A stretch of DNA of 32,000 bases, taken from assembly GCF_024753565.1 (NCBI RefSeq), contig NZ_JANTPT010000001.1:1659336-1691335 (forward strand), written 5' to 3'. How positions within the stretch are numbered: position 1 is the first letter of the stretch; the number at the start of each line of letters is the position of its first letter. The position numbers and the translations under genes are program-made. This DNA comes from Mechercharimyces sp. CAU 1602 (GTDB taxonomy: Bacteria; Bacillota; Bacilli; Thermoactinomycetales; JANTPT01). The notes under the pieces were generated by a model. The model searched no databases, had not been told where the DNA came from, and was given only the letters and a program-made list of their open reading frames with translations. This document shows positions 1,351-20,999 of the stretch, one piece after another.

Positions 1351-1362
1351 TGGAGGGAACCT

Positions 1363-2679: not shown

Positions 2680-3165
2680 ATGGAGTTCCAAACTCTCACA
2701 TCTGAACAGTTTCAACGTATGTGTCCATACCTGATTCATTTTTTCAAAAACCAAGGTGAGAAGCGCATCACTTATCAATCCTTGCGCTGGCTACACAACC
2801 AACAAAATACTGGATATGAGTTAGGAACAATCGCCACTGTTGCCCTCGCTCAAAAAAGGCTAGCTGGCGCTCTCGTCCTGGGTAGATATGGAATAGAAGA
2901 GTCCTTGCTAGCCGTACACTCCACCTATCGTAATCAAGAAATTGCAGAGACCCTCCTGTTACAAGCGAAAGAGGAGTTAGGGAAATTATATGGTCGAATT
3001 GAGTGTGACAATTCCGCTAGCTTAAAAGCTTGCTTCAACGCCGGTTTAATGGCCTTTCGACTGATCCAGGGAACCACAGGAAAACCTACTTTATGGCTTG
3101 CAGGGGGCGACTGGAGCGAAGAAGAACTGGATCATTATCTAGATGAGAACTCCCTTCCGCTTTAA
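2680..3165 (+). CDS. Small GNAT-fold-like protein; a putative acyl/aminoacyl transferase, possibly with a degenerate CoA-binding loop
   Basis: 161-aa ORF. Its ATG directly abuts the upstream TAG (2677-2679), which suggests translational coupling. VHSTYRNQEIAETLLLQA resembles GNAT motif A (R-x-x-G-x-G/A) with E replacing the first Gly. IECDNSASLKACFNAGL resembles motif B (N..A..lY...GF). The assignment rests on motifs only. Confidence 0.5.
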   Translation: MEFQTLTSEQFQRMCPYLIHFFKNQGEKRITYQSLRWLHNQQNTGYELGTIATVALAQKRLAGALVLGRYGIEESLLAVHSTYRNQEIAETLLLQAKEELGKLYGRIECDNSASLKACFNAGLMAFRLIQGTTGKPTLWLAGGDWSEEELDHYLDENSLPL

Positions 3166-3167
3166 AG

Positions 3168-3222
3168 GGAGAACAAAGGACCCTGCCTGAATATGAGCGG
3201 GGTTCTTTGTCTATTTATTCAC
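3168..3222 (+). terminator. Putative rho-independent terminator after the ATP-grasp/GNAT operon
   Basis: Imperfect hairpin AGAACAAAGGACCCTGC ... GCGGGGTTCTTTGTCT with one bulge and two mismatches, followed by a T-rich TATTTATT tract. Confidence 0.4.
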
Positions 3223-3345
3223 CTGCACACTGTTCTTATAGTAAATATGAAAAAGGGTTGTACCTTTTTTTACTTTACGTCTACATATTCGTCCATCATG
3301 AATATAGGTATAAGTAGATACGAATTAGAAAGGGGCTGAGACATT

Positions 3346-6300
3346 TTGGCACAAAACAAAAAAAGACCAACGAAGCGCTCTGTAAAAGGGAAAAAAAATA
3401 TTACGCAGGAAGATGAACGTATACTTAAGCAAATTGTCCATCATCACGGTGACCCTGCACCGGTAAAACAGGCAACCATCTGGCTCTCCGATAACGGGGG
3501 CGCAACGAATACGAGAAAAAAAGGATCTGTGGAATCAAATCATCAATTACACCAACCAGATAACTATTCCCTTCAACAAGGACCCATTCGAGATGAAGAA
3601 GAATTCTCTTCCTCATCAATACAAGCGCAATCAGATGATGTTAGCTTTATCTCATCCATGATTGATCCTCATTCGCAAAGTGAGCCTGGTGCCCCACCCC
3701 CCTCCTATATTCGGGACTTTGCCGGATCTACAGAATGGGGTAACACCGAACTCGATGAGGACGAGGACTCAAACGACGAGGTCATCCATACTACAGACCA
3801 TACCTCCGAAACAGCCAATACGGGGAAGAAATCCTTTCTTCATACTGAATCTGTGGATGCTTCTCATATAAAAGCCGGAGCGATCCATGACCATCACATA
3901 TTACCACGCGCTGTTCAGGCAAAACATATCCAAAATCGCAGTATTGCAGGAAGACACTTATCTGAAAGCATCATTAGACGAATTACTACCCCCTATATCG
4001 CTCCGGCCTCTTTAAGTGGTGAACATCTGATGGAAGGGGTGATCTCTACTTCTCATCTTCAAAATGAAGCCATAACAGGCGGCAAAATCTCTGCCCATGC
4101 CATTCAATCGCAGCACCTAGAACATGGAGCGGTTGTAAATCATCATGTTCGTGATCACTCCATCAGTGGAAATAAATTATCACCCAACTCCATCACTACG
4201 GATAACATTGCTCCTCAAGCCATCCACAGCAAACATATCTCCTCTCGATCGATCGAGGGAGTCCACTTTAAAAAAGGAGCCATTCAAAGTGAGCATATAT
4301 TATCCAACGCAATTGCATCTCAGCACATCAATCCTAAGTCTATTGAAGCGAAGCATATTCTACCTCAGGCGATCCAAGAAGACCAACTAGCTAATGAGTC
4401 TGTAACTAGTAAAAAGCTGGCCCCCAAGTCGATTCAAGCCAAACATTTAACACAAGACTCTGTCAAAAAGAATCACATCAGTGCTCTTAGCATTACAACT
4501 GATCATCTGGACAGTCAAGCCGTTGTCGGTAAGAAAATAGCACCTCATGCGATTCAATCTCGACATATCGCTTCCCAGTCGATCACCAGCGACCATCTCT
4601 TTAACGACTCGATCTCAGGTGAAAAGATAGCTTCACATTCGATTGGAGAACAACACCTAATGAATAAAACTGTAAATAGTCAGCATCTGCAAGATGAATC
4701 CGTTCACACTCATCATCTAGGGAAGCAAGTGATCGCCAGCGATCACTTGGGAGAACAAATTGTAAATAGTGAACATGTGAATAATGAAGCAATCCAAGGC
4801 GAACACCTCGCCAAAGAAGCGATTTCAGGTGAACATCTCCAAAAAGAGGCCATCTCAGGAAAAAAAATAGCCCCACAATCGATTGGAGAACAACACCTCC
4901 TAGAGAAAACCGTCAACAGCCTTCATTTGCAAGACGAATCTATTCAAACACACCATCTGGGAAAGCAAGTGATCGCCAGCGATCACTTGGGAGAACAAAT
5001 TGTAAATAGTGAACATGTGAATAACGAAGCAATCCAAGGTAAACACCTTGCTAAAGAAGCGATTGCAAGTGAGCACCTTCAAAAAGGAGTGATCACTAGC
5101 GACCATATTGATGATGAGTCGATCGTTTCTACACACTTAAGTGCTCTTTCTGTTTCAGGAAAGCACTTAACTGAACGTTCTGTCGACTCAGATCATATTA
5201 AAGCAGGGGCTATAGATGGATCACACATCGCAAAAGAGAGTATTTCACCCAAACACTTGACTAAGGGAACGATCACCAGCGATCAATTAGCAAATGAAGC
5301 AGTCCATTCTAACCACCTCTCCCGCCAATCCGTCACTAGCCAACATATCGGATCCAACACCATTTCACCACACCATCTCTGTGCACAAACCATTCAGCAC
5401 AAACACCTCGACAATGGAGCGGTTACGGGAAAGAATTTAGCTGAACGGGCCGTCCAATCTACTCATTTGAGTGACCAATCTGTCAATAGTCAGCACATTG
5501 CTCCCGCTTCGATCCAAAGTGAACACCTCGCCCTCGGAAGCATTGCCTCCGAACACTTGAGTGATGACATTATGCAAAATTTTACTCCCCCATCAATTAC
5601 ACAAGATCACATTGCTAAAGATTCGATTACATCTGAACAGATTGCTCCGGGAGTTATTGATCAGACTCATATCCAAAAAAACGCTATCCATGGGGATCAT
5701 ATTGATGAGTTTTCCATTCAATCCCACCATCTTGCGATCCAATCAATCTTAGATGAGCACCTATCTGATGGATCTATTGGCGATACCCATATAAAACCCC
5801 AGTCCATTCAAAGTGAGCATCTAGCAGACTTCTCTGTTCACTCCCAACATTTAGCGATCGATTCAGTAACCAATGAGCAATTAGCGGACAATTCCGTGGA
5901 TCATATCCACCTTAAGCACCAATCTGTGCAGAGTAGACACATAGTGGATGAGGCCATTGATTCTACTCATCTCAAACCGACCATCATTCAAGGAAAGCAT
6001 ATAAAGAAACAAACACTCCAGGCACAACATCTCGCCCCTGACTCTATAACGGGTGAGCACCTAAAAGATGAATCTATCAAAACAAACCATATGCAAGCAG
6101 GTTCTATTCAAGGGCAGCATTTGGCTCACCGCTCTATTGCAACAGAGCACCTACGTGATCATACCGTAATTAGCGCACATCTTGGAGAAAAAGTTATCCT
6201 TGCCAAGCATCTAGCTCCTAGTATTATCGATTCTGATCACATTAGAAAACATAGTGTGCAAACCCAACACCTAACCGAACAAAGTATCGGTTCTGATCAC

Positions 6301-9077: not shown

Positions 9078-10496
9078 TTACAAGAAACGACGGTTGCATT
9101 TATTACCATTAAAGCTAAATAACACACTCCGTCCTTCAATCGTCGTTTCAATGTGTACCGTGCGCCCCCATAATTCAAATAGATGGGGTAGCGTCTTCTC
9201 CAAGTATTTCACATCTAGTTCGGTCCCCTCATACTGGTGTTTCAGATAAAGCTCTCGATTTTGCATATAATCACCCTCTTGTACCACCAAGTACGGATGT
9301 CCTCCGTTGATGCGGCTCGCCACCAACTGATCACGCACTTTTTCCCAATTTTTATCCTCTATGGTCCAATCATTACCTCTACGTCCGAAGAGATAAAGAT
9401 CAAGCTCATCTACCAGCTCCTTTGTCAAATAGTTACGGATGAAGGAAGTATCCGAATCCACCTCACGAATTTCAAAAAGTTTCTCCCGCCCACTACCTGG
9501 TTTTCGTCCATAACGCTCCTGTTCTTCTTCTGATGGCTCATCCCACCTGCGCTCAATATCCTCTAGCATTTTTAGCCCAAGGTAATACGGATTGATCGAT
9601 GTGCTAGACGGTTGGATAACAGATGCGTTAAGCTTTGCAAATTCCACTGTCTCCTCTTCTGTCAAATTCATTTCGCGTAAAATACGAATATGCCAATACG
9701 AAGCCCATCCCTCATTCATCACTTTTGTTTCCATCTGTGGCCAAAAGTACAGCATCTCTTCCCGTATCATCGTTAGTACATCTTGTTGCCACTCTTCCAA
9801 CACCTGACTATGGTGCATAATATACAAAAGCAAATCTTTCTGTGGTTCCATCTTACTCTTTTTGCGCTCTACCCTTGTCTCTTCATTCGCACGATCATCC
9901 AATCTCCACAATGCGTCATATGGAGCTGGGGCAGAAGGACGATTAGCTGCCCCCTCTTCTTTCTTATCCTCTTGCTCCCAGTCAGAATTCTGTCTCATTA
10001 AGCTTGGGTCAATATGTTCTTGCACCGCTAACGCATGATCTAAAAACTCTTCTACCTCTTGTTTCCCATACCGTATTTCATAAGAACGAATTCGCTCTGC
10101 ACTTGCCGCCATACTTTCCACCATATCACGCGATGTATGGGAGAACTGAACGTTATTTTTAAAGAAGTCACAGTGTGCCAATACATGGGCAACAATTAGC
10201 TTATTTTGAATCAGGCTGTTTCCTTCCAACAAAAAAGCGTAGCACGGATTAGAGTTGATCACCAGCTCATAAATACGGCTTAAATTCAGATCATACTGAA
10301 GTTTCATTCTATAAAATGACTTTCCAAAACTCCAGTGCGAAAATCGGGTCGGCATTCCATATGCACCAAAAGTATATATAATGTCTGCAGGGCAAATCTC
10401 ATAACGCATGGGGTAGAAATCCAGTTTAAAACCACGTGCGATTTCAGTTATTTCATCAATTGCTCGCTCCAACCCTTTAAGATCTGCTGATGTCAC
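9078..10496 (-). CDS. spoVR: Stage V sporulation protein R (SpoVR family)
   Basis: Family-typical sequence: [60 protein letters not shown] place the start at the GTG at 10496 (VTSADLKG...) because AAAGGGGAG lies 8 nt upstream. The ORF-track start at 10526 would add 10 aa with no RBS. The resulting 472 aa is close to the B. subtilis SpoVR length as I recall it. Confidence 0.9.
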
Positions 10497-10644
10497 GCTT
10501 GCAACTCCCCTTTCCCAGTGGGTCACACAGACTCACGGTGATATTTATCATTATACGTAGAGAGCAACGGAACGTTTCTAGACATCTGCTTTTTAATCCC
10601 ACCATTATACCGCTACAGTTACCTTAAAGCGGATCTTTTCATGC

Positions 10645-10680: not shown

Positions 10681-11301
10681 TTATAAGGGGCGTAATACGG
10701 CCCTTACTGGACTCCCATCCGCTTCTTTAAGCGGTAGTGGCAATGCAATCAGTTCATACTTGCCCGCATCTATTTGATCCAATACCGCCCCCTCTAAAAT
10801 ATGTATACCGGCCGCATGCAAAGCATGATGTGCACGCAATTCCTTACTATCTAGTGGATCGACCGAAGGCACGTCCAAACCTAATAGACGCACGCCCTTG
10901 TCCGCTAGATAAGGAGCAATCTCCGGCTCCATATAAGTGATCGACTCAGGAAAAGAAGAATAATCCTTCCAAGCGTCCGTACGAATAAAGAGGCGCTCTA
11001 CACCTGTTAAATCATAAGTTAATAACTCTTGAACTCCAATTGACGTACGCTCAGGCAAGTGTAGGACCAGCACTTCACCCACATACAAGCTGAGATCTAA
11101 ATCTAAAATCTTTGCGCCCTCTTCATCAAAGTGAAAAGGGGCGTCCACATGTGTACCTGTATGCGTACTAAGATTTATTTGCCCTACATTGACCGAACCG
11201 CTTTCCTCCTTTGTCCATGTCAAATCATAAGAGAAAGGAGTATCTCCTGGCCATACGGGCATCCCTTCCTGGAGCGGCTGAGAAATATCGATCCACTTCA
11301 T
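10681..11301 (-). CDS. kynB: Kynurenine formamidase (arylformamidase, cyclase family)
   Basis: 206 aa. The [10 protein letters not shown]...MPVWPGD...STHTGTHVDAPFHF metal-binding signature is typical of bacterial KynB. Its ATG overlaps the kynU stop (TAATG). Confidence 0.85.
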   Translation of the reverse strand: MKWIDISQPLQEGMPVWPGDTPFSYDLTWTKEESGSVNVGQINLSTHTGTHVDAPFHFDEEGAKILDLDLSLYVGEVLVLHLPERTSIGVQELLTYDLTGVERLFIRTDAWKDYSSFPESITYMEPEIAPYLADKGVRLLGLDVPSVDPLDSKELRAHHALHAAGIHILEGAVLDQIDAGKYELIALPLPLKEADGSPVRAVLRPL

Positions 11302-12584
11302 TATGCCACCACTTCACGTTTTTTTTCGTATTTCTCATATCGTTTTTCAACCATAATACGCTTCAATACTTGCACTGTCTGCCACACCTCAAGATACGAG
11401 GTGTAGAGTGCGATTGGAGCTAATCGTATAATATTAGGTTCGCGGTAATCTGGGATGATGCCTTCTTCTTTTAATGCTTTACAAATCCGTATCGCCTCTT
11501 CATGCACCAGTGCAATATGCCCACCACGCCGGTGATCCTCTGTCGGGTTCATAAATGAAAACCCTGTATTCCCCATCTCTGCTTGAATCAAATCCATCAT
11601 ATATCGTGTCATATGCAAAGACTTCTCTCTAATCTGTTCGATCCCGGCTTCTTCAAAAATCTCCAAAGAACCATATAGTGGGGCCATGCTTAATACATGC
11701 GGTGTCCCGATCTGAAATGCTCCTGCCGTTTGCGCAGGCTCCAACTGATGTTTCATATCAAATTGCTTCTCTTTATCCGAACTAAACCATCCGGCTAGAG
11801 CAGGCGTCGCCCCTAAATGCTTCTCGTGAACATACAATCCTGCTACCCCGCCAGGTCCACTATTTACATATTTATAGTGACACCAGACCGCAAAGTCAAC
11901 ATCCCATCCATTAAAAGCATGGGGAATAGCTCCAATCGAGTGACAAGCATCAAACCCGATGACGATTCCATTCTTCTTTGCTTCAGAGGTGAGTCGCTGA
12001 ATATCTAACAATTGCCCACTGCGATACAACACTGTAGGAAGAAGGATAAGGGCTACTTCATCTGTCATCATCTCAATGATGTCTTCTTCTTCTATCATCT
12101 TTCCATCCCGACTCAGAACTTGTAACAGGTGTTCATCTGGATCAAATCCATGGATGCGCAATTGGCTTTGCAGTGCATAAATATCTGAAGGGAACGTCAA
12201 CGTGTCTGCTAAAATCTTGGTTCGCTTCCCTTCCGGTCGATAAAAGGTAGCCACCAATTGATGAATATTGATCGTCGTGGAACCTGTTACAATCACTTCA
12301 TCTGGTAACGCTCCAATCAGAGGAGCTACTTTTGCCCCCAAGGTTTCTGCCATCTCATACCATGGTCGCTTCCCTTTCATCCACCCATCTATGCCAAACT
12401 GGCGCCAATCCGCCATCACGTCTAATAGCGTTTGTTCTGCTCGCTTAGACATCAAACCAAGTGAATTGCCATCCAGATAGATGGTTCCTTCTGCCTGATA
12501 AAACTCTGTCTTATAACGTGCCAGTTCATCTTCTTGATCTAATTCCACAGCATACTGGCGGCTCAAATTATCCAAGTTGGTCAC
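11301..12584 (-). CDS. kynU: Kynureninase (PLP-dependent)
   Basis: Aminotransferase class V-like sequence with kynureninase-typical blocks: [38 protein letters not shown] and GWFS....F. I place the start at the GTG at 12584 (VTNLDN...), 7 nt after AAAGGAAG. The ORF-track start at 12635 would overlap the kynA 3' end by 25 nt. Confidence 0.88.
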
Positions 12585-12610
12585 TTGCACACTTCCTTTC
12601 TCTCTTCGTT

Positions 12611-13450
12611 CTACAATTTCGTCCTTAGCTCCCACAATTCTGGAAACATACGTTGATCAATAACTTGCTTTAAATAGGAAACACCTGAAGATCCTCCCGT
12701 ACCCATCTTCATCCCAATCACTCGTTCCACTGTTTTCATATGACGGAAACGCCATTGTTGAAAACGATCTTCAAGATCAACTAGTTTCTCTGCTAAATCA
12801 TATAAGTCCCAGTACTTCTCAACATCGCGATACACCTGTAACCAAGCTTCCTCCACACTAGGGTGAGCAGCATAAGGCTCCTTCCAATCCCTATTCAACA
12901 CAGCGGAATCAACACTTATCCCTCTTTGTGCAAGTGCTTGGATCGACACATCGTAGATGCTAGGTTCGTGTAACACCTGCTCTAGTCGTTTATACCGTGG
13001 TTGATCATGTTGGTAAATTTCTAAGATGCGCTCATTTTTCTTTCCGAGGAGGAACTCAATCTCACGATTTTGGAACGATTGAAAACCGGATGATTTCCCA
13101 AGGGCATCACGAAATTCCATGTATTCGGAAGGTGTAAGTGTCGACAATACGTCCCATGATTGGATTAACTGAAGTTGACTTTTTGAAACCCGTGAAAGCA
13201 TTTTAAAAGAAGGCTCTAATTCACCTCTACTAATACATGCTTTTGCCTCGGATAGCTCATGAATCATCAGTTTCATCCATAGCTCACTTGCTTGATGAAT
13301 AATGATAAATAGCATCTCATCATGATGGCCTGACAATCGCCGTTGGCTGGATAAGATCTGATCTAACTGTAGATATTCTCCGTAACTCATTTCCTCTTTA
13401 AAATCGGTGTGCATCCCTTTCTCCCACACTTGTCCTTGCTTCTTTTCCAT
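12611..13450 (-). CDS. kynA: Tryptophan 2,3-dioxygenase
   Basis: [15 protein letters not shown]...[19 protein letters not shown] and [11 protein letters not shown] are TDO hallmarks. I place the start at the ATG at 13450 (MEKKQGQ...), 8 nt after GGAGG. The result is 279 aa. Confidence 0.9.
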
Positions 13451-13702
13451 TGTAGGACCTCCATACTCATAATCCATTCTTCTCTTTTAGGATACCGAAT
13501 GCAAAGCAGATAATCACCCCCATATTTATACTCGTCTACAATCCATACTATTCAAACTTATCCACTTGCTTTCATATGACACCCATATCTTAAATGAATG
13601 GCTTTATCCTGTAATACCCGCATAAGCCTAGACACAATATGAAGGAAAGGAGTAATCTATATTTAAGCATATGCAATCCACAGCGGTTTAAAGGAGTGGA
13701 AT

Positions 13703-14510: not shown

Positions 14511-14545
14511 GACAAACCCGTTAGCATGCTAACTGTTTTTTCGTC
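14511..14545 (+). terminator. Possible weak terminator after the PHP gene
   Basis: Palindrome GTTAGCATGCTAAC (14520-14533) followed by TGTTTTTTCG. The stem is short, with a very small loop. Confidence 0.35.
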
Positions 14546-14578: not shown

Positions 14579-16573
14579 TTATTCACCGGAAGCATTGCTT
14601 TTCCCACGAGGACCACGAGCCCCCCGAGGACCACGTGGTCCGGTAGGACCGGTCATCCCTGTCGCTCCTGTGGCTCCTCGTGGTGCAGGTCTTCCTAGCT
14701 TTAACACAAAAGCATCTGCGAACTGACTCTTATTTTCTGTCTGGAAAGCACCTGGTGTCGTAGGGAAATCCGTAGATAGTGTAAACCCAACCACAGCCAC
14801 CTGTTGATTTTTCTGAACAGCAATATCAATGCCAAAATCATTAGCATCACCACCATAGTAGGTGGAATAAGAAATACCTGTCCCGGCAAAACTCATCTGC
14901 GTAATAAAAGCATCGGCTGAGCCCCGCAAGCGATCTTGGAAGGCATCTGAGGTGAGTGGAAAATTAGCAGAGCGTGTCACTCCTGTTACCCACGCCCCCT
15001 CGAAAGCATCGATGGCAACCCCGGATCCCAGCTCCTCACCGCTTCCTCCCAGGTAGGTAGAGTAAACCTGCGCTGTCCCTGATCGATTCAATTTGCATAC
15101 ATACGCGGAGTTTACTCCTGGAAAGAGAGTCTGAAATGCACCACTGGTTACAGGGAAGTTCGTTGAAGACGTAGAGCCTACAATATATGCTTGATCGCCA
15201 CCATCTATAGCGATAGCACTAGCATCTTCAGCATCGCTTCCTCCCAAGTAAGTAGAGTACACCAGCCCTGAGCCATCTGGATTTAGTCTGGTTACAAAAG
15301 CATTTTGGGACCCTCGCAACTGCGTCTGAAATGCTCCTGACGTAACAGGGAAGTTCGTCGACCTGGATATCCCACTTACGAAGGCATTACCTTCGTTGTT
15401 AACAGCAATCGCTTCTCCTTGGTCCGATTGAGCTCCACCTAAAAATGTGGAATATCGTAACGCGCTCCCTGTTGCGTTTAATTTCGTTGCATATGCAGCT
15501 CCTCCACCTGGAAGTATCGTCTGAAATGCTCCTGAGGTAACCGGAAAATTAGGAGAGGTCGCAATCCCTGTAATATATGAATTCCCTTCGGCGTCAAGAG
15601 CGATATCTTCGCACGAATCAGGAAATTCTCCACCTAAGTAAGTGGAAAAAACAAGGGATGTCCCCTGACTATTAAGACGCGTAATAAAAGCACTCGTAAA
15701 ACCACCCACTGTCGTTTGAAATGCTCCCGACGTTATGGGGAAGTCTATCGAATCTGTAATACCTACTGCAACCGCTTCATCTCCATCAACGGCGATGCCT
15801 CTCCCTGTAGTGATGCAAATACCGCCCAAATACGTAGAGTATACAAGTGAACTACCCGTCTGATTTAGTTTACTAACAAAAGCACTTGACACACCACGAT
15901 TTACCGTTTGAAATGCCCCAGTAGTGACTGGGAAATCATCCGAATCGGTTACGCCCGTTACATAAGCATTGCCGCTGGTATCCACAGCGATCCCCATTCC
16001 GCCTGCTTGTAAATCAGAACCATCAAATCCACTTCCGCCTAGAAGTGTAGAGTAAAAAATAACGGGGTCGATCACAAGTGAGTAACGAGGGTCGTATTCA
16101 CCTACCTCAAAGCCAAGAGCGCCCCCCTCACTGACAACAAAACCTGCTTCAACCTCCACCTTCTTCCCTTCGATCCATTGGTAACTGTACGGTTTTTCTT
16201 CTTTTACTAACACCTGCTGTGTATGAAGAAACAAGTGACCGTCCTTATCCACTTCCATCTTGGTCGCACCCTCATACGTAAGTCGTACAGAACTTATCTC
16301 TGCTCCAGGACTTACAATGACATCGTACTTCAGCTGATCGCCTTGACGATAAAAAACCATATCCACACCAGGAACTATCTGCTCATAAACAGCTCGTTTT
16401 CCCTCATCTACTAACTTTACTCCTTTTCCCTTCGGCAACATCAGCCGCAGAAAAGGGGGGTAGCGAAGCTCCTCCTGCTGCACTCCTGACTGAATTAGTG
16501 AAAAGTTGACCTCGTTATGAACAAAATCTACTTTAACGTCGTTAACGTCCATCTCTTTGTTCGTAGTCTTCAT
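14579..16573 (-). CDS. SBBP-type seven-blade beta-propeller repeat protein with a C-terminal collagen-like (G-X-Y) tail (paralog A, 664 aa)
   Basis: The ATG at 16573 lies 9 nt after AAGGAG. Seven repeats of ~55-65 aa have the form A[VI]D..GNAY[VI]TG.T.S..FP[VI]T.GAFQT...G...AF[VI].[KR]LN..G..L.YSTYLGG. The N-terminal ~170 aa contain GVDMVFYRQGDQLKYDVIVSPGA, which resembles the domain commonly preceding SBBP propellers. The C-terminus reads GATGATGMTGPTGPRGPRGARGPRGKS. Confidence 0.85.
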   Translation of the reverse strand: MKTTNKEMDVNDVKVDFVHNEVNFSLIQSGVQQEELRYPPFLRLMLPKGKGVKLVDEGKRAVYEQIVPGVDMVFYRQGDQLKYDVIVSPGAEISSVRLTYEGATKMEVDKDGHLFLHTQQVLVKEEKPYSYQWIEGKKVEVEAGFVVSEGGALGFEVGEYDPRYSLVIDPVIFYSTLLGGSGFDGSDLQAGGMGIAVDTSGNAYVTGVTDSDDFPVTTGAFQTVNRGVSSAFVSKLNQTGSSLVYSTYLGGICITTGRGIAVDGDEAVAVGITDSIDFPITSGAFQTTVGGFTSAFITRLNSQGTSLVFSTYLGGEFPDSCEDIALDAEGNSYITGIATSPNFPVTSGAFQTILPGGGAAYATKLNATGSALRYSTFLGGAQSDQGEAIAVNNEGNAFVSGISRSTNFPVTSGAFQTQLRGSQNAFVTRLNPDGSGLVYSTYLGGSDAEDASAIAIDGGDQAYIVGSTSSTNFPVTSGAFQTLFPGVNSAYVCKLNRSGTAQVYSTYLGGSGEELGSGVAIDAFEGAWVTGVTRSANFPLTSDAFQDRLRGSADAFITQMSFAGTGISYSTYYGGDANDFGIDIAVQKNQQVAVVGFTLSTDFPTTPGAFQTENKSQFADAFVLKLGRPAPRGATGATGMTGPTGPRGPRGARGPRGKSNASGE
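14597..14677 (-). repeat. Collagen-like G-X-Y coding tract (9 triplets) at the 3' end of paralog A
   Basis: Decoded codon by codon from the minus strand: GAT GAT GMT GPT GPR GPR GAR GPR GKS, followed by NASGE and the stop. Confidence 0.85.
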
Positions 16574-16606
16574 TTCTCCTTCTCCTTTCTTCTCGAGGAT
16601 CTTCCC

Positions 16607-18829
16607 CTATGTCCCGCTAAACTCTCCACTCATTCCCCGTGGCCCACGTGCCCCTCTAGGCCCACGTGGCCCCCTTGGTCCTGTCGGACCTGTTGGACCT
16701 GTAGGTCCAGGAACTGCTACCGGTCCAATCTTAGAAGCAAAAGCATCGTTTGCTCCCTTCAGAACCGTTTGTACAGCAGCAAACGTAGTAGGAAAATCAG
16801 TTGAATTTGTTACTCCTGTCAAATAAGCATTGGTAGAACCATCAACTGCAATTCCTTCCCCTTCATCTTCGCCACTTCCTCCGAGGAAAGAAGAATACGA
16901 AATTCCCGTTCCTGCAAAACTAAACTGAGTAAAAAATGCATCCGCCAAACCGCGCAGATGAGCTTGGAATGCATCCGACGTGAGCGGGAAGTTGGTTGAG
17001 GAAGTTAATCCCGTCACATACGCATTACCAAAGGAATCAAGCGCCAGTGCATTTGCCCTATCATCTTGTGTCCCACCTAAAAAAGTGGAATAGAGCAACC
17101 CTCTCCCACTCGGATTTACCTTCGTAGCAAACGCATCCTCTGCACCCCCTATATTCACTTGAAACGCACCTTCACTAATTGGAAAATCGGGGGAATCCGT
17201 TACGCCGGCCACATATGCATTTCCACTTATATCTACACCAATGCCCGCCCCTTCGTCTTTCCCACTTCCTCCCAAATAAGTGGAGTAGACCAACGTACTC
17301 CCTTCCCCATTTACTTTAGCAACGAAGGCATCCGACACGCCTCCTTGATACGTACGCTCAAACGCACCCAAAGTAGTTGGAAAGTCGAGAGAGGATGTAA
17401 GTCCTGTAATATATGCATTCTGCTCGCCATCCAACACGATTGCCCTCGCTTCCTGCGTACCGCTTCCACCAATAAAACTAGCGTACAATAAGGATGTGCC
17501 TTGCGTGTTAATACCGGCTACAAATCCATCTTGGGTACCTCGAAACATTGTTTGGAATGCACCAGAAGTAACTGGGAAGTCACTTGAAGTCGTCGCTCCC
17601 GTCACATACGCCTGTTGATTTTCGTCAACCGCAATTCCATTCCCATCATCTTCCCCACTACCTCCCAGGTAAGTAGAATAAAGAAGGGAAGTGCCTGTTG
17701 AATTTAGTTTCGATATAAATGCAGACTTCACTCCCTGCAGTACACTTTGTACAGCATTTGCGGTAACTGGAAAGTTAGTCGATTCACTATTGCCAACAAT
17801 ATAAGCGTTGCCCTCTGTATCTACAACAACTCCTTTCCCATCATCTACCTTAGTACCGCCCAAATAAGTAGAGTAAAGAAGTCGCGAGCCGTTTCTGCTA
17901 AGTTTGGTAACAAATACATTTTCATCCCCTCGGATAGCCGTTTGAAAAGCCCCTGATGTAACAGGAAAATTAGTTGAATTGGTTTTCCCCGTTATATATG
18001 CTTCTCCCGCGCCATTGACAGCTATGGCCTTTCCCTCATCGTCTTCACTTCCTCCAATAAAGGTCGAGTAAAATACGACAGGATCAATCACTAGTGGAAG
18101 CTTTGGATCATAATTCCGCTCCGTTACAAAGCCTATATGATCTCCACGACGAACAAAACGAGTCGGTATTGTTCGCAGATGATGATCCTGCCACTGATAG
18201 CCGATCGGTTTTTTATCGCACCACACACCTGAGCCAGTTTGAATAGATAGATCTCCATTCTCCTCGATCGTCATCTTTTGCATTCCTGTAAATAAGAAAT
18301 TTACCTGCTCTAAATCAGCCCCAGGCTGAAGCACAACATCATATTTAATGCGATTTTCCTTCCCATACCAAACGATATCGATACCCGGCCAAACATGTTC
18401 ATACACAATCTCCCGATATCCCCAAACAGACTCCTCTCTCTTTCCTCTGTTCATGCTTATGGCGAACTTTTTGGCACGTCTCCCCCTCACACAAACAGCA
18501 GTAGATCTAGCTCCGAACAAAAGGGATAAACGATCCAATAATGGCTCTCCAGCTCTAAAAACAGCTTCTCCATAAAATAAATCTAGTGAATACCCACCTC
18601 CTGTAGCGTGATATGAGGTTGTTCTCCCCTCTCCTCTCCGTTGAAACCAGACTGATCCAACCCGCTCATGTCCATACTTTCGTACATTCCATTCTTGCTT
18701 CTTAATTCTTGTGTATCTTTTCCCCACAATCCCACATCCTTTCTTATAAATAGAATACGTTTTCACTCCTTTCTTCGTATCCGCAGGTGCGTGGATCTGA
18801 ACCCGAATTAAACACTTGCTCTCCATCAC
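16607..18829 (-). CDS. SBBP-type seven-blade beta-propeller repeat protein with a C-terminal collagen-like tail (paralog B, up to 740 aa; start uncertain)
   Basis: Seven SBBP-like blades, for example DTEGNAYIVGNSESTNFPVTANAVQ and DISGNAYVAGVTDSPDFPISEGAFQ. The N-terminal domain contains WPGIDIVWYGKENRIKYDVVLQPGA. The C-terminus reads GPTGPTGPTGPRGPRGPRGARGPRGMSGEF. The stop lies 33 nt upstream of the paralog A start, so the two are probably co-transcribed. The GTG at 18829 lies only 7 nt downstream of the upstream gene's terminator, and the GTG at 18727 follows AAAGGA. Confidence 0.8.
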   Translation of the reverse strand: MMESKCLIRVQIHAPADTKKGVKTYSIYKKGCGIVGKRYTRIKKQEWNVRKYGHERVGSVWFQRRGEGRTTSYHATGGGYSLDLFYGEAVFRAGEPLLDRLSLLFGARSTAVCVRGRRAKKFAISMNRGKREESVWGYREIVYEHVWPGIDIVWYGKENRIKYDVVLQPGADLEQVNFLFTGMQKMTIEENGDLSIQTGSGVWCDKKPIGYQWQDHHLRTIPTRFVRRGDHIGFVTERNYDPKLPLVIDPVVFYSTFIGGSEDDEGKAIAVNGAGEAYITGKTNSTNFPVTSGAFQTAIRGDENVFVTKLSRNGSRLLYSTYLGGTKVDDGKGVVVDTEGNAYIVGNSESTNFPVTANAVQSVLQGVKSAFISKLNSTGTSLLYSTYLGGSGEDDGNGIAVDENQQAYVTGATTSSDFPVTSGAFQTMFRGTQDGFVAGINTQGTSLLYASFIGGSGTQEARAIVLDGEQNAYITGLTSSLDFPTTLGAFERTYQGGVSDAFVAKVNGEGSTLVYSTYLGGSGKDEGAGIGVDISGNAYVAGVTDSPDFPISEGAFQVNIGGAEDAFATKVNPSGRGLLYSTFLGGTQDDRANALALDSFGNAYVTGLTSSTNFPLTSDAFQAHLRGLADAFFTQFSFAGTGISYSSFLGGSGEDEGEGIAVDGSTNAYLTGVTNSTDFPTTFAAVQTVLKGANDAFASKIGPVAVPGPTGPTGPTGPRGPRGPRGARGPRGMSGEFSGT
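16619..16708 (-). repeat. Collagen-like G-X-Y coding tract (10 triplets) at the 3' end of paralog B
   Basis: Decoded from the minus strand: GPT GPT GPT GPR GPR GPR GAR GPR GMS GEF, followed by SGT and the stop. Confidence 0.85.
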
Positions 18830-18835
18830 AAATTC

Positions 18836-18869
18836 TAAAAAAAGACGTGCCCGCTAATTCGGACACGTC
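18836..18869 (-). terminator. Rho-independent terminator after the NRDE-family gene
   Basis: Minus strand reads GACGTGTCCG-AATTAG-CGGGCACGTC (9 bp plus one mismatch), followed by TTTTTTT. It begins immediately after the stop at 18870. Confidence 0.75.
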
Positions 18870-19643
18870 CTACAATATCTCAATTTTATATAACTCTTCG
18901 CTAACTACACGCTCATCGGCATATGTTCGTTCGATAAATATAATTGCGTGCTGCTTCGTATCCACCCACAGCACCGTAGACGAGCGGGTCCCATAAGCTG
19001 GTAAACGTATAAAAAGAGGAGATAGCCCCCGTTCCACTTCCAATCCGACTCCCGTATGGGGAAGCTCATGATCTTCTGCTTGTTCACTTGAGGTAAGTAG
19101 TTGAAACAGAGCATCACAATCCGGTTGATCAGCACTTGCTGAAGGCATAAGTTCCTCTAGTTTCGCTCTTCCTTTTTCCACTTTGGGCCACGGTGTATTA
19201 AGAAAAGAATTACTTATTCCATGTATCCCTGGAGCGACGGATAACAACTCATTATGGCGATTAGAATAATACCACAAGTCATGCTGATTCCCCACTAAGA
19301 GATTAAACCCTTGATATCTATCCCTCACCGTTTGAATTTGAGCTAAATAAGATGGCGCGTCCAATGAACCACGCAAAAAATTTGCCACCAAATCTCCTCG
19401 TGATGCCTTCCCATTACGTGATTGATGAGGATCTCGATAATTGGTTACAGCTGCAAATTGCCCTTCCCGATTTATCCCTAACCAAGTGCCCCCCTTCACC
19501 AGATCACGTCCTGCTAACACATGGGGCGCATCTTTCCAAAAAGCTGCTTTCGCCGTAGGACGTTCAGTAAATTCATCACGATTAGAAGCCACAATGAGCG
19601 GAAACCGAGCATGCATCTGATAGGCGAACAAAATCGTACACAT
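18870..19643 (-). CDS. NRDE-family protein (DUF833 / TANGO2-like)
   Basis: MCTILFAY...LIVASNRDEF...GGTWLG...FAAVTNYR is the family signature, including the NRDE motif. I place the start at the ATG at 19643, preceded by GGAAAGGGGGA. The ORF-track start at 19790 would overlap the upstream gene by ~110 nt. Confidence 0.85.
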   Translation of the reverse strand: MCTILFAYQMHARFPLIVASNRDEFTERPTAKAAFWKDAPHVLAGRDLVKGGTWLGINREGQFAAVTNYRDPHQSRNGKASRGDLVANFLRGSLDAPSYLAQIQTVRDRYQGFNLLVGNQHDLWYYSNRHNELLSVAPGIHGISNSFLNTPWPKVEKGRAKLEELMPSASADQPDCDALFQLLTSSEQAEDHELPHTGVGLEVERGLSPLFIRLPAYGTRSSTVLWVDTKQHAIIFIERTYADERVVSEELYKIEIL

Positions 19644-19680
19644 CGATTTGTTCCCCCTTTCCTCTCTTGTTCTATGACAC

Positions 19681-20943
19681 TTATACCATACCACTCTCCG
19701 CTGCATGCTTACCCGCAGAAAAGCCGGTAGCAAAAGCAGCGGTAATATTGTATCCTCCCGTGTATCCATGGATGTCCAAAATCTCTCCACAAAAATAGAG
19801 TCCTTCCATTTGTTTCGACTCCAAGGTAGATGGGTTTATTTCCTTCAAATGAACCCCACCTCCAGTAATAAAAGCCCGCTCCAGCGGAAGCGTCCCACTA
19901 ATATCGAGCGGAAAGGCTTTAACCAACTGACAAAATGATAACCATTTCTTTTTAGAAAGATTAGCATAGGTCACATCTGGATCCACATCAGCTCGCTCCA
20001 GTAGGTAGAGGAGACCCCTTTCAGGCAACAGCGGTTTTAATACATTGCGAATCGCACGTTTCGATTCTTTATGTAAGCGACTTTCCCACTCTTGTTGCAA
20101 AGTAGTTAAGCTTATATCTGGAACCCAATCCAAGGTGATTCGCACAGGGGATGGCCTCTTCTTCTGTTCTTTCACCACAAATTGACTACATCGCAGCGCT
20201 ATCGGACCTGATATCCCAAAATGCGTAAATATCATGTCGCCGCGATGGGTCACAAGCTTTTTCCCCTTATGATTGAGAACTGCTAATTCAACCCCTCGTA
20301 GCGATAAGCCCTGTAACCTCTTTTCTTTAATAAAAAGCTCGTCCGAAGTAAGGGGAACCTCCGTCGGATATAGTTCCGTGATCGTGTGACCTACACTTTC
20401 TGCCCAGCCATAACCTTCCCCAGTCGATCCTGTTTTGGGAACTGACTTTCCTCCTACTGCAACGATTACTGCCGCCGCTAAACACTTTTCCCCATTTTCT
20501 AATTCCACACCCACCACTTGCTCCTGCTCCAACAGCAGACGAGCTACTGGTGATTGCAGACGAAAACGAACACCCTCTCTTCTCAATTTGCCTACCAATG
20601 CATCCACAACCGACTGCGCTTTATCCGTAACAGGAAACATGCGCCCTTCATCTTCTTCTTTTAAAGCCACCCCTAACTCTTCAAAAAAAGAAATGATGTC
20701 CTCATTATTAAAATTGGCGAAAGCGCTATATAAAAATCGTCCATTACCCGGAATATAACGAATCAATTCATCAATTGGTTTGCGGTTTGTAACATTACAG
20801 CGTCCTCCACCCGAGATCGCTAACTTACGACCTAGTTTCTCTCCCTTTTCAATAAGCAGCACCGAGGCTCCGTGTGTACTTGCAGCAGCTGCTGCCATCA
20901 AACCTGCAGGACCTCCGCCCACTACAATTACTTGTTTACTCAT
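19681..20943 (-). CDS. NAD(P)/FAD-dependent oxidoreductase, BaiN/HI0933 (YhiN-like) flavoprotein family
   Basis: [14 protein letters not shown] dinucleotide-binding motif, [11 protein letters not shown], and C-terminal [12 protein letters not shown], all typical of HI0933-like proteins. The start is the ATG at 20943, 7 nt after AAGGAG. Confidence 0.85.
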
Positions 20944-20999
20944 CTTCATTCTCCTTGTCTTGTTCCATAACATTCACCCTTACTACCTGAAGCGATAAA

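What the first reader, a model, noticed from the sequence alone, without database searches (positions are those of the whole stretch)
14579..18829. Tandem paralogs combining a seven-blade SBBP beta-propeller with a C-terminal collagen-like tail and no secretion signal
Both proteins share one architecture: an N-terminal ~170-260-aa domain, seven SBBP-type blades (motif D..GNAYVTG.T.S..FP.T.GAFQ...AFV.KLN..G..L.YSTYLGG), and then 9-10 G-X-Y triplets at the extreme C-terminus. In characterised bacterial collagen-like proteins (Bacillus BclA, Streptococcus Scl) the collagen stalk lies N-terminal to a globular trimerising head. Here the order is reversed and the stalk is very short. A triple helix would bring three 7-blade propellers together, giving a collectin-like or lectin-like trimer. 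Two diverged paralogs 33 nt apart raise the possibility of heterotrimers. Neither has a signal peptide or anchor, which again fits mother-cell assembly onto a spore surface. I know of no characterised member with this domain order.
Basis: partly seen in the sequence, partly recalled or inferred. Interest (0 to 1): 0.75.

Follow-up and report, generated by a model that had tools for sequence, protein, structure and literature searches.

The report
Beta-propeller proteins with short collagen tails
Two neighbouring genes of a spore-forming bacterium encode seven-bladed beta-propeller proteins that lack any export signal and end in a very short, arginine-rich collagen-like tail; this is a rare, uncharacterised design that comparative evidence loosely ties to the spore surface.

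Summary
Window 14579-16573 (-) and 16607-18829 (-) are real tandem paralogs, 45% identical and 33 nt apart. Each has a reduced DUF7948 N-domain, seven SBBP blades and 9 or 10 uninterrupted G-X-Y triplets at the C-terminus. Neither has a signal peptide, TM segment, lipobox or LPXTG. The window matches Mechercharimyces sp. CAU 1602 (Thermoactinomycetaceae), which has four such paralogs. All four tails end in a conserved GPRG(P/R)RGPRG cluster. This cluster is identical in the tandem pair although 8 of 13 codons differ.

Among 237 retrieved homologs, long G-X-Y runs occur only in these four and in a few Paenibacillus proteins. All Bacillales members lack signal peptides, whereas most others carry a hydrophobic N-terminus. 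In Shimazuella the homolog sits between a BMQ_0737-family spore coat gene, a UDP-GlcNAc 2-epimerase gene and a BclA-like collagen gene.

My best reading is mother-cell-made spore-surface proteins, with the propeller head outward and the basic collagen tail acting as oligomeriser or anchor. This is inferred, not shown.

Trimers, heterotrimers and lectin activity are untested.

This is a new variant of known kinds, of moderate interest.

The parts
16607..18727 (-). Upstream gene of the pair (NCBI: SBBP repeat-containing protein, P0100). The longest ORF runs to 18829 and NCBI starts it at 18826. The probable true start is the GTG at 18727, giving 706 aa.
   Evidence: ORF; identity to P0100. The GTG at 18727 lies 9 nt after AAAGGA. 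It leaves 16 residues before the 'YG' that opens DUF7948, as in the Paenibacillus homologs. The annotated ATG sits only 16 nt after the terminator T-run.
18077..18682 (-). Degenerate full-length DUF7948 N-domain of the upstream gene
   Evidence: Pfam PF25778 at 124.5 bits, covering profile positions 85-214. Alignment A3 shows that the conserved 'LPLSFE.N.GQ' and 'NYFIG.DP..W' motifs are replaced. The all-beta model has pLDDT 76 and no significant PDB fold match.
16727..18076 (-). Seven-blade SBBP beta-propeller of the upstream gene
   Evidence: Pfam PF06739 at 185 bits with 6 stretches. Seven FP.T..A[FV][QE] motifs at a 65-aa period.
16619..16708 (-). Collagen-like tail of the upstream gene: 10 G-X-Y triplets (GPT x3, GPR x3, GAR, GPR, GMS, GEF), followed by SGT and the stop codon
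   Evidence: Pfam Collagen scores 21.1 bits, below the cut-off of 27.2.
16574..16606 (-). 33-nt intergenic spacer carrying the RBS (GAAAGGAGAAGGAGAA) for the downstream gene. It has no terminator, so the two genes are probably co-transcribed.
   Evidence: Sequence; no terminator-like site in the spacer.
14579..16573 (-). Downstream gene of the pair, 664 aa (100% match to P0001, Mechercharimyces sp. CAU 1602)
16061..16552 (-). N-terminally truncated DUF7948 domain of the downstream gene (only profile positions 56-214 are present)
   Evidence: Pfam at 134.1 bits, alignment A3, beta-rich model.
14696..16060 (-). Seven-blade SBBP beta-propeller of the downstream gene
   Evidence: Pfam at 103 bits. 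AlphaFold2 pLDDT ~97 over residues 190-620, with four strands per blade. The best PDB fold match is the CylK propeller, E 2e-22. Seven motifs.
14597..14677 (-). Collagen-like tail of the downstream gene: 9 G-X-Y triplets (GAT, GAT, GMT, GPT, GPR, GPR, GAR, GPR, GKS), followed by NASGE and the stop codon
   Evidence: The tail is disordered in the monomer model, as expected for a collagen chain.
18842..18871 (-). Strong intrinsic terminator of the upstream TANGO2-family gene. It marks the 5' boundary of the two-gene unit.
   Evidence: 12-bp stem with 7 GC pairs and a T-run.
18751..18778 (-). Candidate promoter resembling the mother-cell sigma-K consensus (AC-N17-CGTATTCTA, one mismatch to AC-N16-17-CATANNNTA). 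It lies 23 nt upstream of the GTG at 18727. This is weak evidence.
   Evidence: One search found 5 matches to this relaxed pattern in 64 kb of both strands. No sigma-70-like site lies between the terminator and the gene.

Best explanation
**Proposal.** The two genes form one transcription unit. They encode paralogous structural or adhesive proteins of the endospore's outer layers.

**Parts of each protein.**
- An acidic globular head: a reduced DUF7948 beta-domain packed on a seven-blade SBBP propeller.
- A short, strongly basic collagen-like C-terminal tail.

**Proposed mechanism.**
- With no export signal, the proteins are made in the mother-cell cytoplasm and deposited directly on the developing spore.
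- The tail has a few G-x-T triplets followed by a conserved GPR-rich cluster. It brings chains together as homo- or heterotrimers with the other paralogs or other collagen-like spore proteins, and/or fastens the C-terminus into the spore surface.
- The propeller head then faces outward as a binding module. This is the same polarity as streptococcal Scl and the opposite of BclA.

**Shown.** The architecture, the absence of export signals, protein-level selection on the tail, restriction of the design to spore-forming Bacillales, and the spore-gene neighbourhood in one homolog.

**Inferred.** Timing and place of expression, triple-helix formation, surface location and ligand binding.
For: - **Architecture:**
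- **No export or anchor signals:**
- **Four paralogs with tails:** all four in the genome carry the tail (9, 10, 14 and 21 triplets), and each ends in a GPRG(P/R)RGPRG cluster.
- **Selection on the tail:** the 13-residue core GPRGPRGARGPRG is identical in the tandem pair, yet 8 of 13 codons differ synonymously. This indicates selection on the peptide.
- **Triple-helix propensity:** GPR triplets are reported to stabilise a triple helix about as well as GPO (Yang et al. 1997, as cited in PMC8233474). Bcl spore proteins have collagen regions as short as 27 residues (PMC8968730).
- **Signal peptides across the family:** 82 of the 116 other top homologs have a strongly hydrophobic N-terminus. All 10 Bacillales loci (Paenibacillus, Cohnella, Shimazuella) and all named Paenibacillus proteins lack one.
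- **Clade:** the signal-less Bacillales proteins form one clade in an NJ tree, and the four Mechercharimyces paralogs are monophyletic at 95/100.
- **Shared junction:** the junction 'DAF..K[IV]G...V.GP.GP.G' is shared between the Mechercharimyces and Paenibacillus collagen-bearing members.
- **Shimazuella kribbensis (same family):** the homolog overlaps a UDP-GlcNAc 2-epimerase gene. It lies downstream of an NF052457 BMQ_0737-family morphogenetic spore coat protein gene (88 bits, cut-off 71). It is convergent with a (GTT)n collagen gene that has a ~140-aa C-terminal globular domain, which is BclA-like. BMQ_0737 is an outermost-layer spore protein in B. megaterium (PMC4656864).
- **Transcription signals:** a strong terminator precedes the pair, no sigma-70-like promoter follows it, and a sigma-K-like motif is present.
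- **Binding function:** the only SBBP protein with functional data, LipL53, is an adhesin that binds laminin, fibronectin and collagen IV (PMC13066512).
Against: - There are no expression or localisation data for these genes or any homolog.
- The window itself gives no close spore-surface neighbours. The flanks are a TANGO2-family gene and a PHP phosphoesterase gene; SpoVR and YheC/D lie 4-13 kb away.
- The Paenibacillus and Cohnella loci also have uninformative neighbours.
- Nine or ten non-hydroxylated triplets are marginal for an autonomous triple helix. Five or six stacked Arg with almost no acidic partner could repel each other. Pfam Collagen is below threshold for both proteins.
- Bootstrap support for the Bacillales clade is only 28/100, and the collagen-bearing members are not monophyletic.
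- The sigma-K-like motif has a mismatch, was found with a relaxed pattern, and is weakly specific.
- The Shimazuella homolog has no collagen tail.
Confidence: 0.45

Rival explanations
1. These are vegetative proteins unrelated to spores. They either stay in the cytoplasm or leave the cell by lysis or a non-classical route. The G-X-Y tail is a flexible, basic, low-complexity appendage that does not form a triple helix, for example one that binds an anionic polymer.
For: - No expression data exist.
- The tail is very short and falls below the Pfam Collagen threshold.
- AlphaFold leaves the tail disordered.
- The immediate neighbours in the window are housekeeping genes.
- The Paenibacillus homologs add a K/R/C-rich tail, so basicity rather than collagen structure could be the selected property.
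Against: - Strict G at every third position over 9-21 triplets in four paralogs, with Pro-rich X and Arg/Thr-rich Y positions, is the collagen signature rather than merely a basic tail.
- The family is otherwise extracytoplasmic: most members have signal peptides and surface-type C-terminal domains such as Big, dockerin, T9SS and DUF11.
- The Shimazuella homolog sits in a spore-surface gene neighbourhood.
Confidence: 0.25
2. The proteins are on the spore surface, but the tail does not make homotrimers of propellers. Instead, single tails co-fold into heterotrimeric helices with long BclA-like collagen filaments, or dock electrostatically onto acidic coat components. This decorates existing fibres or layers with monomeric propeller heads.
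For: - The tail is too short for confident autonomous folding.
- The conserved GPR cluster lies at the extreme C-terminus, where collagen folding nucleates (PMC11923368).
- A BclA-like (GTT)n collagen gene lies next to the Shimazuella homolog.
- The head is acidic (net -24 in the 664-aa protein) and the tail is basic (+6).
Against: - No partner collagen gene is present in this window; only the two tails were found in a six-frame scan.
- The Shimazuella homolog that neighbours the collagen gene lacks a tail itself.
- Nothing was tested directly.
Confidence: 0.15
3. The proteins are enzymes. Catalysis would occur at the interface between the N-domain and the propeller top face, as in the Friedel-Crafts alkylase CylK. 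The tail would serve only for oligomerisation.
For: The best solved structural match is CylK, with Foldseek E 2e-22, TM ~0.54 and 18-20% identity. CylK's active site lies between its N-terminal domain and the top face of the propeller (PMC8916777).
Against: - CylK's N-domain is an RTX-type Ca-binding beta-roll. The N-domain here is DUF7948, with no significant fold match in the PDB.
- There is no sequence-level match to any PDB entry.
- The Mechercharimyces paralogs have lost the most conserved DUF7948 motifs. That argues against a conserved active site there.
- No biosynthetic gene cluster surrounds the pair.
Confidence: 0.08
4. The genes are remnants of a prophage tail fibre or another mobile element, since collagen-like repeats are common in phage fibres.
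For: Collagen-like repeats do occur in phage fibre proteins (general knowledge). There are multiple paralogs in one genome.
Against: - No phage or mobile-element genes were found in the 32-kb window. The flanks are the kynurenine pathway, odhAB, asnB and mscS.
- GC content is only slightly above that of the flanks.
- The homologs are chromosomal proteins of a very large cellular family.
Confidence: 0.02

Closest known systems
Streptococcus pyogenes Scl1/Scl2 collagen-like surface proteins
   Same: The domain order is the same: an N-terminal non-collagen globular domain followed by a Gly-X-Y region towards the C-terminus. The likely polarity is also the same, with the head distal and the C-terminus proximal (PMC8968730).
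   Different: - Scl proteins have a signal peptide, a small helical V domain, 20-130 triplets and an LPXTG wall anchor.
- The proteins here have no signal peptide, a ~620-aa DUF7948 plus propeller head, only 9-10 triplets and no anchor motif.
- NCBIfam Scl models score 17-20 bits against cut-offs of 325-400.
BclA-type exosporium collagen-like glycoproteins (Bacillus cereus group, B. megaterium, C. difficile BclA1-3)
   Same: - They lack a signal peptide and are made in the mother cell.
- Their collagen-like region is rich in G-x-T triplets and varies in length between paralogs or strains, down to 27 residues in some Bcl proteins (PMC8968730; PMC4674009).
   Different: - BclA has an N-terminal targeting peptide, then collagen, then a C-terminal C1q/TNF-like trimerising head.
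- Here the head is N-terminal and is a beta-propeller, the collagen is terminal, and no BclA-C domain or exosporium leader was detected.
DUF7948-SBBP beta-propeller proteins of Acidobacteriota, Chloroflexota, Bacteroidota and others (the 'SBBP repeat-containing protein' / TIGR03437-associated family)
   Same: They share the same N-domain plus seven-blade SBBP core, at 40-50% identity over ~85% of the query.
   Different: - Those proteins mostly carry a hydrophobic N-terminus and C-terminal Big, dockerin, T9SS, HYDIN-like or DUF4214 modules.
- The window proteins lack the signal peptide, have a decayed N-domain, and carry a collagen tail instead.
Paenibacillus DUF7948-SBBP-collagen proteins (Paenibacillus sp. 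PL91 x2, P. lemnae, P0162, P0150)
   Same: They have the same three-part architecture, no signal peptide, and a conserved propeller-collagen junction 'K[IV]G...V.GP.GP.G'.
   Different: - The Paenibacillus versions keep an intact DUF7948.
- Their collagen is mostly longer and Q/P-rich, up to 32 or more triplets.
- They end in a 30-45-aa Lys/Arg/Cys-rich tail rather than a GPR cluster plus 'GEFS'.
- They are likewise uncharacterised.
Leptospira LipL53 family SBBP lipoproteins
   Same: They share the SBBP repeat type. LipL53 is the only SBBP protein with functional data: it is a surface adhesin that binds laminin, fibronectin and collagen IV (PMC13066512).
   Different: LipL53 is a lipoprotein with a signal peptide, no DUF7948 and no collagen tail. 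The NCBIfam model scores 53 and 82 bits against a cut-off of 400.
CylK / BrtB alkylating enzymes (cyanobacteria)
   Same: CylK is the closest solved fold for the seven-blade propeller, and it also has an N-terminal domain capping the top face.
   Different: CylK's N-domain is an RTX beta-roll. Identity is 18-20%, with no sequence-level hit. There is no natural-product gene cluster here.

Membership tests
SBBP beta-propeller repeat (Pfam PF06739) | Repeat matches above the Pfam gathering score | tested here: met
   103.4 and 185 bits against a cut-off of 20.5.
SBBP beta-propeller repeat (Pfam PF06739) | Seven blades closing into a propeller | tested here: met
   Seven motifs at a 65-aa period. 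The AlphaFold2 model has 28 strands in seven four-stranded sheets with pLDDT ~97. It matches seven-blade CylK by Foldseek at E 2e-22.
DUF7948 (Pfam PF25778) | Match above the gathering score | tested here: met
   134.1 and 124.5 bits against a cut-off of 27, but only profile positions 56-214 and 85-214 are covered.
DUF7948 (Pfam PF25778) | Conserved N-terminal motifs 'YGKLPLSFE.N.GQ' and 'NYFIG.DP..W' | tested here: not met
   These motifs are deleted in the 664-aa protein and two other paralogs, and degenerate in the upstream gene ('YGHERVGSVWFQRRGEG').
Collagen triple helix repeat (Pfam PF01391) / bacterial collagen-like proteins | Uninterrupted Gly-X-Y repeats | tested here: met
   9 and 10 uninterrupted triplets. 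The other paralogs have 14 and 21.
Collagen triple helix repeat (Pfam PF01391) / bacterial collagen-like proteins | Pfam gathering score | tested here: not met
   18.0 and 21.1 bits against 27.2. The longer-tailed paralogs P0081 and P0109 do carry a precomputed PF01391 hit.
Collagen triple helix repeat (Pfam PF01391) / bacterial collagen-like proteins | Formation of a trimeric triple helix | not testable with these tools
   Only single-chain prediction was available, and the tail is disordered in the monomer model. Testing needs CD, SEC-MALS, collagenase digestion or multimer modelling.
BclA-type exosporium glycoproteins | C-terminal C1q/TNF-like BclA-C domain after the collagen region | tested here: not met
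   There is no such Pfam hit. Only 3-5 residues follow the collagen run.
BclA-type exosporium glycoproteins | No signal peptide (mother-cell synthesis) | tested here: met
   This is compatible with the family but not specific to it.
BclA-type exosporium glycoproteins | Sporulation-specific expression and spore-surface location | not testable with these tools
   The evidence is only indirect: a sigma-K-like motif and the Shimazuella neighbourhood.
Scl1/Scl2 LPXTG-anchored collagen-like adhesins | Globular domain N-terminal to the collagen region | tested here: met
   The order is head then collagen, the same as in Scl (PMC8968730).
Scl1/Scl2 LPXTG-anchored collagen-like adhesins | Signal peptide and C-terminal LPXTG anchor; NCBIfam equivalog cut-off | tested here: not met
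   No signal peptide or LPXTG was found. NF038329 and NF038330 score 17-20 bits against cut-offs of 325-400.
LipL53 family SBBP lipoproteins (NF047494) | Equivalog score cut-off and lipoprotein signal | tested here: not met
   53.1 and 81.6 bits against 400. No lipobox.
CylK-like alkylating enzymes | N-terminal RTX-type Ca-binding beta-roll fused to the propeller | tested here: not met
   The N-domain is DUF7948. Its model has no PDB match with E < 0.1. CylK's N-domain is an RTX beta-roll.

The most novel reading that the evidence does not exclude
These proteins may define an unrecognised class of endospore-surface proteins in Thermoactinomycetaceae and Paenibacillaceae. In this class, a large beta-propeller head is displayed on a minimal collagen stalk clamped by a C-terminal GPR cluster and fastened through a basic C-terminus. 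That polarity is the inverse of BclA. The class would have been recruited from a secreted protein family by loss of the signal peptide, and multiple paralogs would be able to mix into heterotrimers.
Probability: 0.3. Interest if true: 0.6.

Novelty: new variant of a known kind. Interest (0 to 1): 0.45.

Why it matters
**For spore biology.** If the spore-surface reading is right, the known kinds of spore-surface display proteins would extend beyond C1q-like heads on BclA-type stalks. It would also give a first molecular handle on the almost unstudied spore surface of Thermoactinomycetaceae. In addition, it would show an evolutionary route by which a secreted protein family is recruited to the spore simply by losing its signal peptide.

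**For collagen biochemistry.** A natural 9-10-triplet tail without hydroxyproline, dominated by GPR, would be a compact candidate trimerisation or nucleation tag.

**If the reading is wrong.** The pair remains an uncharacterised member of a very large family of DUF7948-SBBP proteins, with an unusual low-complexity tail.

Tried and rejected
- **Paralog loci.** Fetching the loci of the two other paralogs (P0081, P0109) to compare promoters and neighbours failed; they are not on record. The CAU 1602 genome is also not in the genome-contig collection, since the window's own locus was not returned.
- **PDB sequence searches.** The single protein found nothing and the 62-sequence profile found only designed Pizza propellers.
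- **Literature.** Searches for SBBP with collagen-like, and SBBP with spore, found nothing relevant.
- **Sporulation promoters.** The strict sigma-K and sigma-E consensus patterns found nothing upstream of the pair or of the Paenibacillus/Shimazuella homologs. Only a one-mismatch sigma-K-like site appeared upstream of the pair. I treat this as weak evidence.
- **Neighbourhoods of the Paenibacillus and Cohnella homologs.** These were not informative about spores (M23/glucosaminidase, beta-lactamase, GH88, DUF11 proteins, GT2).
- **Prophage origin.** Rejected from the gene context.
- **CylK-like enzyme.** Considered and down-weighted, because the N-domains differ and the conserved DUF7948 motifs are lost.
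- **Single origin of the collagen fusion.** Not supported by the NJ tree, in which the collagen-bearing members are not monophyletic. The conserved junction keeps an ancestral fusion with later losses possible.
Full report
**1. What is in the sequence**

- On the minus strand, ORF 14579-16573 (664 aa, ATG) and ORF 16607-18829 (740 aa from GTG) lie head to tail, 33 nt apart.
- The spacer carries a strong ribosome-binding site (GAAAGGAGAAGGAGAA-ATG) and no terminator-like site, so the two genes are most likely co-transcribed.
- A strong intrinsic terminator (18871-18842, 12-bp stem plus T-run) ends the preceding TANGO2-family gene, immediately upstream of the pair.
- The annotated ATG of the upstream gene (18826) begins only 16 nt after that terminator.
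- An in-frame GTG at 18727 is preceded by AAAGGA at 9 nt. It leaves 16 residues before the 'YG' that opens the DUF7948 domain, the same spacing as in the Paenibacillus homologs. I therefore think the real product is about 706 aa.

**2. Domain content**

- Pfam gives DUF7948 at 134 and 124.5 bits (cut-off 27) and SBBP at 103 and 185 bits (cut-off 20.5). Collagen gets sub-threshold hits of 18.0 and 21.1 bits against 27.2.
- Each protein has seven 'FP.T..AFQ' motifs at a 65-residue period.
- An AlphaFold2 model of the 664-aa protein was built on 62 homologs (mean pLDDT 87, pTM 0.78).
  - Residues ~172-626 form a seven-blade propeller with pLDDT ~97.
  - Residues 12-170 form an all-beta N-domain.
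  - The last 35 residues are unstructured, as expected for a single collagen chain.
- The tails read GAT GAT GMT GPT GPR GPR GAR GPR GKS-NASGE* and GPT GPT GPT GPR GPR GPR GAR GPR GMS GEF-SGT*.
- The chance expectation for such runs is about 1e-5 to 1e-6 per protein.
- There is no hydrophobic N-terminus, no TM segment (maximum 19-mer hydropathy 1.25 and 1.06), no lipobox and no LPXTG.

**3. Organism and paralogs**

- The 664-aa protein is 100% identical to an 'SBBP repeat-containing protein' of Mechercharimyces sp. CAU 1602. This genus belongs to the Thermoactinomycetaceae, within the Bacillota.
- That genome has four paralogs: P0001, P0100, P0081 and P0109. They are 45-53% identical to each other, and each has a G-X-Y tail, of 9, 10, 14 and 21 triplets.
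- The tails differ in the number of G-x-T/G-x-x triplets, but all end in a conserved GPRG(P/R)RGPRG cluster followed by a few residues containing 'GE(F/L)'.
- In the tandem pair, the 13-residue core GPRGPRGARGPRG is identical while 8 of 13 codons differ synonymously. The peptide is therefore under selection and is not the result of recent gene conversion.
- The head of the 664-aa protein is acidic overall (net -24), while its tail carries 7 K/R against 1 D/E.

**4. Family context**

- The DUF7948-SBBP family is very large. Both searches hit the 8000-candidate ceiling, with E-values down to 0.
- Members come from Acidobacteriota, Chloroflexota, Bacteroidota, archaea and others. They usually carry C-terminal surface-type modules such as Big, dockerin, T9SS tail, HYDIN-like Ig, RTX or DUF11.
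- Of the 116 top hits other than the four paralogs, 82 have a strongly hydrophobic 12-mer in the first 70 residues. The four paralogs score 0.57-1.27 on the same measure.
- Among all 237 proteins retrieved, runs of 5 or more G-X-Y triplets occur only in seven: the four Mechercharimyces paralogs plus P0126 (Paenibacillus sp. PL91), P0159 (P. lemnae) and P0162. P0150 has a shorter run.
- The scan of species-representative genomes found Bacillales relatives in Paenibacillus (PL91 x2, YAF4_2, lemnae, methanolicus, Soil787), Cohnella xylanilytica (x2) and Shimazuella kribbensis. None has a signal peptide.
- The C-termini of these relatives vary:
  - collagen plus a Lys/Arg/Cys-rich tail;
  - DUF11/TIGR01451 repeats;
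  - an unknown ~110-aa domain ending in 'TPVP';
  - or nothing.
- The junction 'DAF..K[IV]G...V.GP.GP.G' is shared by the Paenibacillus and Mechercharimyces collagen-bearing members.
- In a neighbour-joining tree over the shared core:
  - the signal-less Bacillales proteins form one clade, although bootstrap support is only 28/100;
  - the four Mechercharimyces paralogs are monophyletic (95/100);
  - the collagen-bearing proteins are not monophyletic.
- The collagen tail is thus either ancestral with later replacements or was acquired twice.

**5. N-domain decay**

- An alignment of N-domains shows that the most conserved DUF7948 motifs ('YGKLPLSFE.N.GQ' and 'NYFIG.DP..W.T.VPTY') are deleted in three Mechercharimyces paralogs.
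- They are degenerate in the upstream window gene. Paenibacillus keeps them.
- A model of that N-domain (pLDDT 76) has no significant match in the PDB (best E 0.24).

**6. Structural relatives**

- No PDB sequence matches the proteins.
- By fold, the best match is CylK, the cyanobacterial Friedel-Crafts alkylase (E 2e-22, TM ~0.54, 18-20% identity).
- CylK's N-terminal domain is an RTX-type beta-roll, and its active site lies between that domain and the top face of the propeller (PMC8916777). The resemblance is therefore in the propeller, not in the overall enzyme, and I give the enzyme reading low weight.
- The only SBBP protein with functional data is Leptospira LipL53, an adhesin for laminin, fibronectin and collagen IV (PMC13066512). 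The window proteins fall far below that family's cut-off.

**7. Evidence bearing on a spore-surface role**

(a) A family that is otherwise exported has lost its signal peptide in every endospore-forming Bacillales member seen. Deposition from the mother-cell cytoplasm is the known way for Bacillales proteins to reach an external surface without a signal peptide, as BclA and the coat proteins do (established knowledge).

(b) Collagen-like regions rich in G-x-T and variable in length are a hallmark of spore nap proteins. Bcl collagen regions range from 27 to 1158 residues (PMC8968730; PMC4674009).

(c) In Shimazuella kribbensis, which belongs to the same family, the neighbourhood of the homolog points to the spore surface.
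  - The homolog's start overlaps the end of a UDP-GlcNAc 2-epimerase gene.
  - Two genes upstream lies an ORF matching NF052457, 'BMQ_0737 family morphogenetic spore coat protein' (88 bits, cut-off 71).
  - The convergent downstream gene encodes a long (GTT)n collagen-like protein with a ~140-aa C-terminal globular domain, which is the BclA layout.
  - BMQ_0737 is one of the outermost spore proteins of B. megaterium (PMC4656864).

(d) Between the terminator and the likely start there is no sigma-70-like promoter. There is an AC-N17-CGTATTCTA motif one mismatch from the sigma-K consensus, 23 nt upstream of GTG-18727. The relaxed pattern occurs 5 times in 64 kb, so this is weak evidence.

Against this reading:
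- The window's immediate neighbours are not spore genes.
- The neighbours of the Paenibacillus and Cohnella homologs are uninformative.
- The Shimazuella homolog has no collagen tail.
- No expression or localisation data exist.

**8. Would the tail form a triple helix?**

For:
- Strict Gly periodicity, a high Pro content in the X position, and Arg in the Y position.
- GPR is reported to stabilise host-guest triple helices about as well as GPO (Yang et al. 1997, as cited in PMC8233474).
- The GPR cluster lies at the C-terminal end, where collagen folding nucleates before zipping towards the N-terminus (PMC11923368).

Against:
- Nine or ten triplets without hydroxyproline are marginal.
- Five or six stacked arginines with almost no acidic partner may repel each other.
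- No trimerising domain is known in the head.

I could not model multimers. Trimerisation, heterotrimers among the four paralogs, and co-folding with other collagen-like proteins all remain open.

**9. Comparison with known systems**

In Scl1/Scl2, an N-terminal variable domain nucleates the following collagen region (PMC8968730).
- The order here is therefore Scl-like, but without a signal peptide or LPXTG anchor, with a far larger propeller head and a far shorter collagen.
- The proteins are members of the SBBP and (partially) DUF7948 families. They are collagen-like by sequence pattern.
- They are not members of the BclA, Scl, LipL53 or CylK families (see the membership table).

**10. Verdict**

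This is a real, rare and uncharacterised architecture. It is best classed as a new variant of known kinds: bacterial collagen-like surface proteins and SBBP propeller proteins. The most likely function is a spore-outer-layer adhesive or structural protein whose basic collagen tail oligomerises and/or anchors it (confidence about 0.45). The finding is of moderate interest: comparative evidence makes the hypothesis testable, but nothing here is experimentally shown.

Noticed in passing
window 3346-8997 (+): A 1883-aa ORF with no Pfam hit. It consists almost entirely of ~11-residue repeats of the type 'H(L/I)xxxS(I/V)xxx' and ends in an NCBIfam WIAG-tail domain (NF012201, 58 bits, cut-off 33). 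It follows two YheC/D-type ATP-grasp genes and a GNAT gene on the same strand. This could be a modification cluster for a giant repeat protein.
   Followed up: partly
window 18727-18829 (-): The start of the upstream SBBP gene is probably annotated too far upstream. The ATG at 18826 lies 16 nt after a terminator T-run and has no RBS. The GTG at 18727 has an AAAGGA RBS and matches the N-terminal length of the homologs.
   Followed up: yes
L008 (Shimazuella kribbensis NZ_KE386619.1) 316-8400: A putative spore-surface gene cluster. In order it contains a BMQ_0737-family spore coat protein (316-1467), a coiled-coil protein (1654-2493), a UDP-GlcNAc 2-epimerase (2634-3779), a tail-less DUF7948-SBBP protein (3776-5911), and a convergent (GTT)n collagen-like gene with a ~140-aa C-terminal globular domain (6048 to ~8400, partly masked by N).
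   Followed up: partly
L006 (Paenibacillus methanolicus) 6115-6489 (+): A free-standing 124-aa ORF lies immediately downstream of the SBBP gene. It repeats the unknown ~110-aa C-terminal domain of that SBBP protein (both end '...ITPVP'). The same domain ends P0202, P0214 and P0173. It has no Pfam family.
   Followed up: partly
L001, L002, L005 and proteins P0126, P0150, P0159, P0162: The Paenibacillus SBBP-collagen proteins end in a 30-45-residue tail made almost only of Lys, Arg, Cys and His (for example KKKKLRTCKKSLRKKHCYRKR). From memory, this resembles basic CotG-like coat proteins. L001 and L002 also share a conserved ~60-nt block just upstream of their RBS.
   Followed up: no
window 18870-19790 (-) and 19681-20973 (-): The longest ORF of the TANGO2/NRDE-family gene overlaps the upstream HI0933-like flavoprotein gene by 110 nt. 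The Pfam match starts at residue 50 ('MCTILFAY'), so its true start is probably near 19643.
   Followed up: no
window 10681-13477 (-): A complete kynurenine-pathway operon (tryptophan 2,3-dioxygenase, kynureninase, kynurenine formamidase-type cyclase) lies next to spoVR (9078-10526).
   Followed up: no
window 14520-14533: A perfect 14-nt palindrome, GTTAGCATGCTAAC, lies between the convergent stop codons of the downstream SBBP gene (14579) and the PHP phosphoesterase gene (14500). It may be a shared hairpin terminator without a clear T-run; the terminator scan did not call it.
   Followed up: no
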